Assembly (NCBI RefSeq): GCF_963921235.1
Contig: NC_086097.1
Coordinates: 11,842,001-11,906,000 of the forward strand
Source: Mobula hypostoma
Lineage: Eukaryota
Direction of reading: 5' to 3'
Length of the DNA: 64,000 nt
The translations under genes were made by a program, and so were the position numbers. The notes under the pieces were generated by a model that saw only the letters and a program-made list of their open reading frames with translations, had not been told where the DNA came from and ran no database searches. Shown here piece after piece: positions 27,401-30,069 of the stretch (within the stretch, counting starts at the first letter, position 1; every line of letters starts with the position of its first letter).

Positions 27401-27887
27401 CATAATACTCTGTTCATTACTCTGTTCATAATACTCTGTTTATAATACTCTGAAAACCCTGGGAACTATAGACCAGGAGTTTTACGAGCGTTGCAAGGAA
27501 ATTGCTGGAGAAAATTCTTAGGGATAGGATATATGATCATTTGGAAACCCTTTGCTTAATTAGAGAAAGACAGCATGGCTTTGGGTGTGGCATGTTGTGC
27601 CTTACCAACTTGACTGAGTTTTTTGACAAGGTGATGAGAAAGATTGATGAAGGTAGGGCAGTAGATGCTGTCTATATGAATTCTAGTAGGGTGTTTGTCA
27701 AAGTCCTTTATGGGAGACTAGGCCAGAGGATTAAGATGCATGGGATTCATGGTGAATTGGTTGTTTGGATTCAGGACTGGCTTGCACGTAGATGACAGAG
27801 GGTAGTGTTTGGAGGCACTTATTTGAGCTAGAGGTCTATACTTAGTGGAGTTCCACAGGGATCTGTGCTGGGTCCTCTGCTGCTTGT

Positions 27888-28793
27888 AAAGTAAAGAATT
27901 GAAAATACACGTGGTCTAAGATGTTAACTGTCCTGTGCTATCACCAGTGGGATCATCAGTTGATCTGCCACCTGTCTTCAGGAGTTTCGGCCCGCTTATG
28001 ACCAAGACTCCCTCGAGGTGGTGGGCCAGCAGTGCTAAAGCACCGCCTCCCACTGGTGAGCTTAAAAACTTGGCATCTGCCTCTATCAGAGTTGTTGGTC
28101 GCTTCCATCCAACAGATAGCCTACTCTTCAGGTGTTTATGCAAATACTGAAGGGTTTGCAAAAGATGTCTAACTATCTGCCCCTCTGGACGTACTTGGTC
28201 CACACCCATGCTGATCCTGTCTCTGCTGCCTCAGCTACAGTCCTGCTGGTTGACTTGATCTCTCTTCTAGTGAAGCCAAGGTCACGCAGCCACTTCTGGA
28301 AAGTGAACATAATAAACCCACGGCAACCAGCTTCGAATGGATAGCATGAGACCTTCCAGCCTCTGTCTCTGCACTCTGATCTTAATTCTGCATACTTGAT
28401 TAACTTGTGCTCATGGGCTTCATCAATGTTGTCTTTCCAGGGGACCGTGTGTTCACCAATAACCACTTCTCTACTGGTGTCAGACCATACGATTATATCT
28501 AGGCGCAATGTGGTGAAAGCTATTTGCTCCGGGAAACTGCCTTTCCCAACTAGGTAGGCCTAGACACACCAATAATTGGCTGAAGAAAGTATGCCTGATC
28601 GTGGGCCTGCGCTGTACACCCTTGACTTGGACCCTTCTTTCACAAATGGTATGCGATGTTCTGTGCAGCATGGGGCATGAGATAAGTTGTGCTGCAGTAT
28701 CTCTGCTCAACAGCTTCTGTTACATGTTTGAGAACATTGTTACGTCTCCAAGTGTACATGTCGCTGGAAAGATTGACTTTGCATGCACTCGAG
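27888..28793 (-). mobile_element. HERO-clade (R2 group) non-LTR retrotransposon 3' fragment with restriction-like endonuclease
   Basis: ACKVNLSSDMYTWRRNNVL (zinc-knuckle/RHN region), then ORF 28173-28508 RLDIIVWS..GEHTVPW..AHEHK..KY..GW..PFEAGCRGF..AE..S.WVW.K; 3'UTR follows. Confidence 0.85.
27947..28021 (-). ncRNA. Candidate permuted (pseudoknotted) hammerhead-like ribozyme with kink-turn in the HERO 3'UTR
   Basis: CCACCU C GA GGGAGU C UUGGUC AUAA GCGGG CC GAA ACUCCU GAA GA C AGGUGG CA GAUCAA CUGAUGA U CCCAC; stems I and III and the k-turn pair by eye, stem II imperfect. Confidence 0.5.
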
Positions 28794-30069
28794 GTATATA
28801 AATGACTTGGATAAAAATGTAGATGGGTAGGTTGGTAAGTTTGTGGATGATATCAAGATCAGTGGAGTTGTGGATAGTGTAGAAGACTAGCAAAGAGTAT
28901 AGCATGATATAGACCAGATGTGGATATGGACTGAGAAATGGGAGATGGAACTTAACCCAGATAAATGTGAGGTGTTGCACCTCAGCAGGGAAATGCAAGG
29001 AGACGGTACACTGTTAAGGGCAAAATCCTTAACAGTGTTGTTGAGCAGAGATATCTTGGGATTGAAATTCATAGCTCCTTGTAAGTGGTTACACAGGTCG
29101 ATAAAGTGGTTAAGAAGGCTTATGGAATACTTGTTTTTATTAGTCAAGGCGTTGAGTTGAAAAGTCAGGAGGCTATGTTCCAACTTTATAAAACTCTGGT
29201 TAGGTCATATCTGGAGTATAACCTACAGTTCTGGTTGCCCCACCATAGGAAGTATGTTGAGTCTTTGGACAATGTGCAGAGGACGTTCCAGAAGGTTGCT
29301 GCCTGGTTTAGAGGGCATGTGCTATCACGAGAGGCTGGATAAACTTGAGTTGTTTTCTCTGGAGCATCAGGGGCTGAGGGGAGATCTGATAGAGGTTTAC
29401 AAGATCATGAGAGGCAGAGATAGAGTGGGCAAAGAGTATCTGTTCCCAGTGTTGATATGTCTAATACCATAGGGCATGCATTGAAGGTGAGAGGGGGTAG
29501 GTTCAAGATGGATGAGAAAGGTAAGTTTTTTTACTCAAAGAGTGGTGGATGCCTAGAATGTGCTGCCTGGTATGGTGGTAGAGGCAAATACATGAGAGGC
29601 TTTTAAGAGTTATCTAGATAGGCAATGAATATAAGAAAGATGGAGGGATCTGGGCATGGTATATGTAGAAGGGATTAGCAATTGGGATGTTTTTGATTTG
29701 CTTTTAGCTGGTTCAGCACAACATTGTGGGCCGAATGGTCTGTTCCTGTGTTGTAATATTCTATGGTCTATGTTCTACGTCTATGCATTGTGTCAGTCTG
29801 CATGTAGTGCACATTCTTAATTCCCAATGAAGAATCTACCCTTGTTACTGGATAAAAAGATCTTGTATACTTTCAGTCTATCTTTGAATAATACTGAAAG
29901 ATTCTGAATGAAAATAAGATGTAAAAATTGCAATTAAATTTGACATAAAACACAGAAGTGCTGGATGACCCAAAGAGGTCATGAAATATTGGTGGCAGAA
30001 ACTGATGTCTCTAGCAGACATAGTAGCATTTACAAATAATAACTATGCTCAGTTTGGTAATGGTTATTT

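What the first reader, a model, noticed from the sequence alone, without database searches (positions are those of the whole stretch)
27947..28021. Hammerhead core in reversed strand order with a built-in kink-turn, in a HERO LINE 3'UTR
Seen on the element's sense (minus) strand: CCACCU-C-GA-GGGAGU-C^UUGGUC-AUAA-GCGGG-CC-GAA-ACUCCU-GAA-GA-C-AGGUGG-CA-GAUCAA-CUGAUGA-U-CCCAC. Stem III is GGGAGU/ACUCCU, giving a GUC cleavage triplet (predicted cut between 28006 and 28005) opposite GAAA. Stem I is UUGGUC/GAUCAA, directly 5' of the invariant CUGAUGA. Stem II is CCCAC/GCGGG but is imperfect, with U and CC unpaired next to the core. Stem III continues through a canonical kink-turn (3-nt bulge GAA, tandem G.A pairs) into CCACCU/AGGUGG. 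Established: type I/II/III hammerheads all use the cyclic strand order [UH]->[CUGANGA]->[GAAA]. Here the order is [UH]->[GAAA]->[CUGANGA], which requires a pseudoknot and would be missed by standard descriptors. Inference: the 4-nt linker joins the ends of stems I and II, which lie side by side in active hammerheads, and the k-turn would bend the chain back to stem I. The motif could be a new hammerhead topology that processes the 3' end of HERO RNA, or a non-cleaving fold that ORF protein recognises. My unverified recollection is that teleost HERO 3'UTRs carry similar GAAAC...CUGAUGA motifs.
Basis: partly seen in the sequence, partly recalled or inferred. Interest (0 to 1): 0.9.

Follow-up and report, generated by a model that had tools for sequence, protein, structure and literature searches.

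The report
Rewired hammerhead core in LINE tails
The 3' untranslated tail of this jumping gene, and of dozens of distant relatives, carries every conserved nucleotide of the hammerhead self-cutting RNA wired together in a strand order not met in the databases and papers searched, though whether it actually cuts is still untested.

Summary
The motif is not chance. A strict scan finds it once in the 64-kb window. It finds 34 hits on the sense strand of 67 distantly related elements, 0 on the antisense strand and 0-1 per shuffle.

Across 44 distinct sequences, four helices are 89.4% paired, against 61.7% in shuffles and 37-47% with slid partners. These are stem I, stem III, the helix beyond the k-turn, and a new helix X.

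In 31 distinct instances the hammerhead core is kept:
- N7 takes all four bases within the searched CUGANGA.
- H17 is C, A or U and never G.
- 16.2-15.2 is G-C in 28 and A-U in 3.

The strand before GAAA pairs with upstream strand X, which supplies a G10.1-C11.1 pair. The strand after CUGAUGA forms a closing helix P1.

Rfam finds nothing and six paper searches found no description.

Cleavage is untested. No genomic copy starts at the predicted cut (0 of 45).

Verdict: a new strand topology of the hammerhead core, probably catalytic, in RLE-type (HERO-like) LINE 3' UTRs.

The parts
28048..28059 (-). P1, 5' strand (UCACCAGUGGGA)
   Evidence: In this family it pairs over 12 bp with 27952-27941, directly after CUGAUGA. 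A helix starting at that position is at least 9 bp in 10 of 17 testable relatives, each reached by at most 0.5% of shuffles; one more has 7 bp at 1.5%.
28028..28047 (-). P2 hairpin (8 bp, UUUA loop)
   Evidence: It exactly fills the gap between P1 and X in the MFE fold. Gaps of 14-27 nt at the same place in relatives hold hairpins, as read in L044 and L070. Not tested by covariation.
28023..28027 (-). Helix X, 5' strand (GGCCC); its first G acts as G10.1
   Evidence: It pairs with 27993-27989. The helix is 78-79% paired with changes on both sides at 4 of 5 pairs. The first base is G in 29 of 31 instances. The one A is opposite one of the two U11.1; the other U11.1 is opposite G.
28016..28021 (-). 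NC helix, 5' strand (CCACCU)
   Evidence: It pairs with 27973-27968. The helix is 86-90% paired and all 6 pairs change on both sides.
28013..28015 (-). K-turn, unbulged strand (C-GA)
   Evidence: GA lies directly 5' of stem III in 20 of 24 distinct instances.
28007..28012 (-). Stem III, 5' strand (GGGAGU = 16.x)
   Evidence: It pairs with 27985-27980. The helix is 90-93% paired. A15.1-U16.1 holds in 41 of 43 sequences with letters at both positions, of 44 distinct.
28006..28006 (-). H17 (C); the predicted cut is between 28006 and 28005
   Evidence: H17 is C in 12, A in 11, U in 8 and G in 0 of 31 instances, in a scan that allowed G. Cleavage itself was not tested.
28000..28005 (-). Stem I, 5' strand (UUGGUC; UUGAUC in 28 of 30 sister copies)
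   Evidence: It pairs with 27965-27960. The helix is 91-94% paired and all 6 pairs change on both sides. It was not part of the covariance model's structure.
27989..27993 (-). Helix X, 3' strand (GGGCC = 11.x); the A/U-rich linker 27999-27994 precedes it
   Evidence: C11.1 is present in 29 of 31 instances.
27986..27988 (-). G12 A13 A14
   Evidence: Invariant columns in alignment A2. These letters were required by the scan.
27980..27985 (-). Stem III, 3' strand (ACUCCU = 15.x)
   Evidence: C15.2-G16.2 occurs in 28 of 31 instances and A-U in 3.
27974..27979 (-). K-turn, bulged strand (GAA bulge, GA, C)
   Evidence: A three-base bulge followed by GA occurs in 18 of 24 instances. Two more have AA in place of GA.
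27968..27973 (-). NC helix, 3' strand (AGGUGG)
27960..27965 (-). Stem I, 3' strand (GAUCAA = 2.x)
27953..27959 (-). C3 U4 G5 A6 U7 G8 A9
   Evidence: N7 is U in 16, A in 9, C in 4 and G in 2 of 31 instances. The other six letters were required by the scan. The covariance model also finds a few decayed variants such as CUUGAAGA.
27941..27952 (-). P1, 3' strand (UCCCACUGGUGA)
27913..27933 (-). Terminal stem-loop (GGAC...UAACAUC...GUCC in sister copies) before the tail
   Evidence: Conserved in 30 copies. Look-alikes appear near the 3' ends of L034, L036, L049, L081, L052 and L039, read by eye.
27896..28797 (-). The whole 5'-truncated LINE copy (C-terminal ORF, 3' UTR, CAATTC tail)
   Evidence: It is 92.2% identical to copy L006 over 912 aligned columns. 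The ORF stop is at 28173-28175. The copy lies inside a plus-strand LINE.

Best explanation
The motif is the centre of a 119-nt RNA domain (28059-27941, minus strand). The domain is conserved in the 3' UTRs of a widespread clade of RLE-type (HERO-like) LINEs.

Shown by comparison: it carries the full hammerhead core, namely C3-A9 with N7 free, G12-A14, A15.1-U16.1, C15.2-G16.2 and H17 never G. The three core strands are joined in the non-canonical order substrate strand > GAAA strand > CUGANGA strand.

'Stem II' is helix X. Its 11.x strand lies before GAAA. Its 10.x strand, beginning with G10.1, comes from upstream and is not joined to A9.

Inferred geometry: A9 runs instead into closing helix P1. 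In this family, and in L044 as read by eye, P1, hairpin P2, X and the core meet with no unpaired bases, as a four-way junction. Stem III passes through a k-turn into helix NC. The far end of NC meets the outer ends of stems I and X. The three arms therefore form a closed cage that would hold stems I and II side by side.

Inferred function: I think it most likely that this is a catalytically competent hammerhead that cuts, and can re-seal, after C28006. It would act on transcripts longer than one unit, from head-to-tail or terminally redundant copies. The same fold would probably also serve as the platform that the element's protein recognises.
For: 1. Letters and positions are as written.

2. 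Specificity. There is one hit in the window, 34 sense and 0 antisense hits in 229 kb of relatives, and 0-1 hits per shuffle. The covariance model gives 48 matches at E <= 0.01. Of these, 47 lie in 43 of 67 loci, all on the sense strand, and 21 were not used to build the model.

3. Covariation. On 28 sequences the helices are 86.6% paired against 61.2% in shuffles, with 151 double-change cells against 46. On 44 distinct sequences the figures are 89.4% against 61.7%, and 240 against 67; 0 of 500 shuffles reach either value and slid controls give 37-47%. Stems I and X were not in the model's structure yet are 94.4% and 79.1% paired.

4. Hammerhead-specific signs in 31 instances:
- N7 takes all four bases.
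- H17 is C 12, A 11, U 8, G 0.
- 16.2-15.2 is G-C in 28 and A-U in 3.
- X1-11.1 is G-C in 28 instances, with one A-U and one G-U.
- The GAAA-to-CUGA spacing is 26-30 nt in 28 of 31.
Perreault et al. 2011.1-11.1 the most conserved pair after 15.1-16.1 (PMC3088659, passages).

5. K-turn signature in 18 of 24 instances. P1 starts directly after A9 with at least 9 bp in 10 of 17, plus one of 7 bp.

6. Context that fits processing of multimeric RNA:
- The motif lies between consecutive ORF copies or upstream of an ORF in L033, L038, L039, L040, L050, L054, L068, L069, L086 and L089.
- Neighbouring units are 70-93% identical in L086, L069 and L033, so these are real genomic tandems.
- In this genome, 7 of 7 copies that reach the 5' UTR start continue into a preceding 3'-terminal piece through the same junction word, the upstream tail unit varying slightly.
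Against: Nothing here shows cleavage.
- None of 45 sampled genomic copies (29, 16) starts at 28005.
- None of the 7 leaders has the roughly 115-nt length that a cut would give. Their lengths are 12, 26, 59, 174, 235, 260 and 281 nt, and the 4 longest span the predicted cut site uncut.
- Every inserted copy reads through the site, so template RNAs were intact when copied.
- The backbone is broken between A9 and G10.1 and replaced by a junction. This has not been shown to support catalysis.
- Hammerhead models in Rfam do not score the motif.
- A few instances lack the k-turn (L044, L046, L070, L090) or have a decayed core (L038/L039, L043/L045, L052).
- Many of the compared sequences are related, so cell counts overstate the number of independent events.
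Confidence: 0.6

Rival explanations
1. A hammerhead-derived or hammerhead-like fold that no longer cuts. In this reading it is a rigid, knotted platform in the 3' UTR. The element's RT/RLE protein, perhaps with a k-turn-binding host protein, recognises it to start target-primed reverse transcription. This would parallel the pseudoknotted 3' UTR of R2.
For: - Its position in the 3' UTR of an RLE LINE, upstream of a conserved terminal stem-loop and tail.
- All copies read through the site, and no copy or leader starts at the cut.
- The R2 protein binds a pseudoknotted 3' UTR (PMC12222951, abstract start in the listings).
- The A9/G10.1 break could disable catalysis.
Against: A binding platform alone does not explain why exactly the hammerhead's catalytic set is kept. 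Nor does it explain why N7 alone is free and why H17 is never G in 31 instances. With equal base use, about one in 7,500 samples of 31 would lack G.
Confidence: 0.3
2. Another kind of structured 3' UTR element, for example an exonuclease-resistant or stabilising knot, whose likeness to the hammerhead core is convergent.
For: Three mutually crossing helices form a closed cage. No family matches it.
Against: Convergence on all core letters, their exact juxtaposition to three helices, and the N7 and H17 pattern is improbable. No test here speaks for exonuclease resistance.
Confidence: 0.07
3. A chance assembly of CUGAUGA, GAAA and short complementary words in one decayed repeat copy.
For: CUGANGA occurs 58 times in the window.
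Against: One hit among those 58 words. There are 34 sense against 0 antisense hits in relatives that share only about 32-59% protein identity. Shuffles give 0-1 hits. Covariation is strong.
Confidence: 0.01

Closest known systems
Hammerhead ribozymes, types I, II and III (Rfam hammerhead clan; Perreault et al. 2011, PMC3088659)
   Same: The full conserved core is present: CUGANGA, GAAA, A15.1-U16.1, G10.1-C11.1 and a GUH cleavage triplet. Three helices abut the core in the canonical register. A device holds stems I and II side by side.
   Different: The strand order is not one of the three circular permutations. The 10.x strand is detached from A9 and comes from upstream. A four-way junction (P1, P2) sits at that break. 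Stem III returns to stems I and II through a k-turn and helix NC, giving three mutually crossing helices. Rfam models do not detect it. Cleavage is untested.
Hammerheads of Penelope-like elements and animal retrozymes (PMC4209133, PMC7229834, bioRxiv 10.64898/2026.07.22.740005; search listings and abstract starts only)
   Same: A hammerhead core carried by a retroelement that is often found head to tail or with terminal repeats. Processing of multimeric transcripts is the suspected role.
   Different: Those are canonical type I motifs in elements with a different RT and endonuclease. Here the carrier is an autonomous RLE LINE and the topology is new.
R2 elements: 5' HDV-like ribozyme and pseudoknotted 3' UTR (PMC3774820 and PMC12222951, abstract starts only)
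   Same: A sister group of RLE LINEs. One RNA end bears a self-cleaving ribozyme, and the 3' UTR is a pseudoknotted fold bound by the element's protein.
   Different: In R2 the ribozyme is HDV-like, lies at the 5' end and cuts at the element's edge. Here a hammerhead-type core lies inside the 3' UTR, about 110 nt from the end.
Kink-turns (Kt-7, box C/D; consensus recalled, not taken from a call)
   Same: A C helix, a three-base bulge, tandem G.A/A.G pairs and an NC helix. Both helices covary.
   Different: The -1b/-1n pair is U.G in this copy. I recall no natural hammerhead with a built-in k-turn. Kinking and protein binding are untested.

Membership tests
Hammerhead ribozyme | Conserved core letters C3 U4 G5 A6 N7 G8 A9 and G12 A13 A14, with N7 free | tested here: met
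   These are invariant columns in A2. N7 is U 16, A 9, C 4 and G 2 in 31 instances. The scan required the fixed letters. The covariance model also finds a few decayed cores.
Hammerhead ribozyme | A15.1-U16.1 pair and an NUH triplet with H17 not G | tested here: met
   U-A holds in 41 of 43 sequences with letters at both positions, of 44 distinct. H17 is C 12, A 11, U 8 and G 0, with G allowed by the scan.
Hammerhead ribozyme | G10.1-C11.1 pair at the base of stem II | tested here: met
   X1 is G in 29 of 31 instances and 11.1 is C in 29 of 31. One A-U and one G-U occur. The G is supplied by a strand that is not joined to A9.
Hammerhead ribozyme | Three helices abutting the core in fixed register, supported by covariation | tested here: met
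Stem I is 94.4% paired, stem III 93.0% and X 79.1%.
Hammerhead ribozyme | Strand order UH > CUGANGA > GAAA, up to circular permutation (types I-III) | tested here: not met
   The order is UH > GAAA > CUGANGA in all 48 matches.
Hammerhead ribozyme | Match to the curated hammerhead covariance models | tested here: not met
   No match at gathering score in the window, none at E <= 10 in 27500-28500, and none at E <= 1 in ten related loci.
Hammerhead ribozyme | Site-specific self-cleavage 3' of H17 | not testable with these tools
   Only assembled contigs of uncertain kind were available. Indirect genomic footprints are negative: 0 of 45 copies and 0 of 7 leaders.
Kink-turn | Three-base bulge followed by tandem G.A/A.G pairs between two helices | tested here: met
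   Present in 18 of 24 distinct instances, with 2 more as AA variants. Four lack it.
Kink-turn | Tight kink, and binding by L7Ae-family proteins | not testable with these tools
   No structure or binding data.
HERO clade of RLE LINEs | Single ORF with RT, a CCHC knuckle and a C-terminal restriction-like endonuclease | tested here: met
   CX2C...H...C followed by RPDIV...ELTVPWE...KY...VEVGCRGF. Precomputed Pfam RT domain PF00078 in relatives.
HERO clade of RLE LINEs | Grouping with reference HERO elements in an RT tree | not testable with these tools
   No Repbase sequences were held. The nearest named proteins are from Branchiostoma at 65-67%. Repbase lists HERO-1_BF and HERO-3_BF for that genus (PMC7650587, passages).

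The most novel reading that the evidence does not exclude
This is a fourth natural hammerhead architecture and the first that is not a circular permutation. It is locked by a k-turn cage into the active, parallel arrangement of stems I and II, and it is active in both cutting and re-sealing. An autonomous LINE would use it to carve unit-length, possibly circular, RNAs out of transcripts of head-to-tail copies. That would explain why these elements so often sit in tandem or carry a leader made of their own 3' end.
Probability: 0.25. Interest if true: 0.95.

Novelty: new variant of a known kind. Interest (0 to 1): 0.88.

Why it matters
Since type II was found in nature, the hammerhead has been held to occur in three circularly permuted forms (PMC3088659, passages). 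All search descriptors assume that order.

A conserved, covarying core in the opposite order would show that the fold tolerates a quite different wiring. It includes a detached 10.x strand, a four-way junction at A9/G10.1 and a built-in k-turn. It would also mean that earlier surveys were blind to a whole class.

It would add a ribozyme-type RNA to the 3' UTR of RLE LINEs, a group now being engineered for gene insertion. It also gives a directly testable link between ribozyme processing, tandem copies and LINE replication. A 119-nt transcript and a gel would settle the main question.

Tried and rejected
Rejected in favour of helix X and P1.
- The ORF 27916-28230 that overlaps the motif is not coding. 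It has no Pfam match, and the homologous ORF of sister copies stops at the point corresponding to 28173-28175.
- Rfam gave nothing at gathering score, at E <= 10 around the site, or at E <= 1 in ten relatives.
- RNA evidence: no RNA holder was listed. All 24 runs are Logan contigs of guessed kind. Laying four of them showed no place where molecules begin or end, and contigs cannot show that. The 20-40-fold depth rise over L013 1714-1803 in runs X1 and X2 does not start at the cut site and stays unexplained. In this genome, 16 of 16 sampled matches to that stretch are ordinary LINE copies.
- A footprint of cleaved templates was sought in 5' ends: 0 of 29, 0 of 16 and 0 of 7.
- T-arm-like words (GGTTCGAATCC and similar) lie upstream of the motif in L056, L066 and L084, but ARAGORN calls no tRNA in ten loci.
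- Earlier notes of this scan held nothing on this motif or sequence.
- Paper searches found no description of a hammerhead in HERO, R4, NeSL or other LINE 3' UTRs, nor of a non-permuted topology. The library lacks most subscription journals and Repbase/Dfam notes. No supplements were read.
- Contig starts close to the motif (L040, L068, L089) were set aside as assembly breaks at repeats.

Full report
**What is in the window**

The stretch lies in a 5'-truncated LINE copy spanning 28797-27896, 92.2% identical to a sister copy. The copy has inserted into a plus-strand LINE.

The copy's ORF ends at 28173-28175. Upstream it encodes a CCHC knuckle and a restriction-like endonuclease motif (RPDI..WS, ELTVPWE, KY, VEVGCRGF). 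The element ends near 27896 with GTGTATTTT followed by CAATTC.

So the motif is in the 3' UTR, 167 nt after the stop and about 110 nt before the 3' end.

The family is abundant in this 3.48-Gb genome. At least 1,676 first-look candidates were found, and the 40 that were scored are 93-100% identical to the query.

**Is it chance?**

No. I scanned for GAAA lying 12-70 nt before CUGANGA, a stem III of at least 4 bp starting at A15.1, one free base, and a stem I of at least 4 bp ending at C3.
- In the window, one of 58 CUGANGA words passes, and it is this one.
- On the sense strand of 67 related loci (229 kb), 34 pass.
- On their antisense strand, 0 pass.
- In each of ten shuffles, 0-1 pass.

**Relatives**

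A protein search with the C-terminal 366 residues of a sister copy found 288 proteins. Branchiostoma proteins came first at 65-67% identity and fish and invertebrate proteins near 40-49%.

A scan of metagenome contigs with an alignment of these proteins returned 67 loci at about 32-59% identity.

Reading their 3' UTRs showed the same layout again and again: [stem III 5'] H [stem I 5'] linker [strand] CGAAAC [stem III 3'] ... [stem I 3'] CUGANGA.

The strict parse succeeded in 26 of 39 UTRs, counting this copy and one sister copy. I then built a covariance model from 28 sequences, with only the nested helices as its structure. It found 48 matches at E <= 0.01.
- One is the window hit at 27947-28027 on the minus strand.
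- The other 47 lie in 43 of 67 loci.
- Every one is on the sense strand.
- 21 of them were not used to build the model.

**Helices**

On the MAFFT alignment of 28 sequences, the four helices are 86.6% paired against 61.2 +/- 1.4% in shuffles. There are 151 cells changed on both sides against 46, a value reached by 0 of 500 shuffles. Slid partners give 37-50%.

On the model-based alignment (44 distinct rows), the figures are 89.4% against 61.7%, and 240 against 67. Slid partners give 37-47%. Per helix the pairing is:
- X: 79.1%
- NC: 90.4%
- III: 93.0%
- I: 94.4%

Stems I and X were not in the model's structure, so the alignment was not fitted to them. Several rows are close kin, so cells are not independent events. 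Even so, some twenty different stem I sequences can be read.

**Stem II**

Instead, the strand just before GAAA (GGGCC, 27993-27989) pairs with GGCCC (28027-28023), which lies directly 5' of the NC strand. I call this helix X. Relatives show GAUGA/UCAUC, GGGCUC/GAGCCC, GGCGC/GCGCC, GACCC/GGGUC and others.

The strand just after CUGAUGA (27952-27941) pairs over 12 bp with 28059-28048. This is helix P1, and it appears in the minimum-energy fold.

A helix beginning exactly after A9 is at least 9 bp in 10 of 17 testable relatives, each reached by at most 0.5% of shuffles. One more has 7 bp at 1.5%. In the other relatives P1 follows a spacer of about 10 nt.

Between P1 and X lies a hairpin, P2 (28047-28028). 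In this family, and in L044 as read by eye, P1, P2, X and the core abut without unpaired bases.

**Hammerhead signature**

In 31 distinct instances:
- N7 is U 16, A 9, C 4, G 2. The other six letters of CUGANGA were required by the scan.
- 16.2-15.2 is G-C in 28 and A-U in 3.
- 11.1 is C in 29 and U in 2.
- The first base of X is G in 29. The single A is opposite one of the two U11.1. The other U11.1 is opposite G.
- The GAAA-to-CUGA spacing is 26-30 nt in 28 of 31.

According to Perreault et al. 2011, 10.1-11.1 is the most conserved pair of the consensus after A15.1-U16.1. [quoted passage not shown]

Here every core feature is present, but the order of the three core strands is reversed. The G10.1 strand is not joined to A9.

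The k-turn signature is GA next to stem III on one strand, and a three-base bulge plus GA on the other. It is present in 18 of 24 instances. Two more have AA. L044, L046, L070 and L090 lack it, and L044 and L090 have a 6-7-nt bulge on the opposite strand instead.

**How the fold would close (inference)**

Tracing the chain, each of the three core helices is joined at its outer end to a different helix.
- Stem I joins X through an A/U-rich linker of a few bases.
- X joins NC with 0-1 base between them.
- NC joins stem I with 0-3 bases between them.

So stems I and X and the kinked arm III-NC all run between the core and a second junction. With helices of 5-6 bp and a k-turn's sharp bend, the lengths fit by rough helix geometry. 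This is my estimate, not a computation here.

This arrangement would hold stems I and II parallel. In canonical hammerheads that is the job of loop-loop contacts or a pseudoknot (PMC3088659, passages).

The gap between A9 and G10.1 would be bridged by a stacked four-way junction. Whether catalysis survives that is the key unknown.

**Does it cut?**

No call shows it.

Only assembled contigs of uncertain kind were available, and they cannot show RNA ends.

Genomic footprints are negative.
- Of 29 copies sampled by their last 113 nt, and 16 sampled by 76 nt, none begins at 28005.
- All copies read through the site.

So template RNAs were uncut or re-sealed when copied.

**Context**

In the metagenome contigs the motif often lies between consecutive ORF copies or shortly upstream of an ORF. 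The cases are L033, L038, L039, L040, L050, L054, L068, L069, L086 and L089.
- Neighbouring units in L086, L069 and L033 are 70%, 90% and 93% identical, so these are true head-to-tail arrays.
- L050 and L089 have terminally redundant ends.
- L068 has the motif on both sides of one ORF.

In this genome I examined 14 near-full-length copies. All 7 that reach the first base of the 5' UTR continue into the 3'-terminal part of a preceding unit. The same junction word follows the tail in all of them, and the upstream tail unit varies slightly. The leader lengths are 12, 26, 59, 174, 235, 260 and 281 nt.

None has the roughly 115 nt expected from a cut, and the four longest span the predicted cut site uncut.

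Transcripts longer than one unit therefore exist or existed. That is the setting in which hammerheads of viroids, retrozymes and Penelope-like elements act (abstract starts). The data do not show that this motif processes them.

**Known or new?**

Rfam 15 has no match at any threshold tried.

Six full-text searches found no hammerhead in HERO, NeSL, R4 or other LINE 3' UTRs and no such topology. A 2026 review of R2-group elements mentions Hero only in a list and no hammerhead (PMC13580325, passages).

The library misses most subscription journals, so an earlier description cannot be excluded.

I file it as a new variant of a known kind. It works like a hammerhead by every sequence criterion. 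It fails the family's strand-order criterion and its covariance models, and its activity is untested.

**Verdict**
- Observation: confirmed except for stem II.
- Interpretation: largely right about the topology and the k-turn, wrong about stem II and about 3'-end trimming.
- That the fold is a conserved hammerhead-type core in a new wiring: about 0.9.
- That it is catalytically competent: about 0.6.
- That it makes unit-length or circular LINE RNA: about 0.25.

Noticed in passing
window 27913-27933 (-); L034, L036, L049, L081, L052, L039 near their 3' ends: A second conserved element sits just before the tail repeats. It is a short stem-loop (GGAC...GUCC) with a UAACAUC-like loop. It is probably the 3'-end recognition hairpin of these LINEs.
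   Followed up: partly
L128, L132, L135, L137, L139 (sense coordinates about 900-1000); L033, L066, L067, L069, L086, L091, L094 downstream of the motif: The 5' UTRs carry repeated small hairpins of the form CCAG(U)GAC...GGAA(A/U)AG(A/U)C...CUGG. They are recognisable from this vertebrate-size genome to distant metagenome elements. Their function is unknown.
   Followed up: no
L128-L141 (this genome): All 7 copies that reach the 5' UTR start are preceded by 12-281 nt of a preceding unit's 3' end. The same junction word follows the tail in all of them. None of these leaders extends beyond the 3' UTR into the ORF. This suggests templates with a leader made of the element's own 3' UTR, in the manner of a terminal repeat.
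   Followed up: partly
table: The nearest named proteins are from Branchiostoma at 65-67% identity. All other listed proteins, fish included, are at or below about 51%. The distribution is patchy for an element in a 3.5-Gb genome.
   Followed up: no
L013 1714-1803, runs X1 and X2: Contig word depth rises 20-40-fold over the last 90 nt of the element in runs of two coded organisms. One contig joins ...CUGAUGAUCCCAC directly to the terminal hairpin. This suggests an abundant shorter relative there, perhaps a SINE-like element. In this genome 16 of 16 sampled matches are ordinary LINE copies.
   Followed up: partly
L056, L066, L084: 3' UTR between the stop codon and the motif: T-arm-like words (GGTTCGAATCC, GGTTCAAATCC, GGTTCGAGTC) and D-arm-like words occur here. 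ARAGORN calls no tRNA.
   Followed up: partly
window 27472-27795 and 28903-29600 (+): The host of the insertion is another LINE on the plus strand. It has reverse-transcriptase-like ORF fragments and is split by the 902-bp copy.
   Followed up: no
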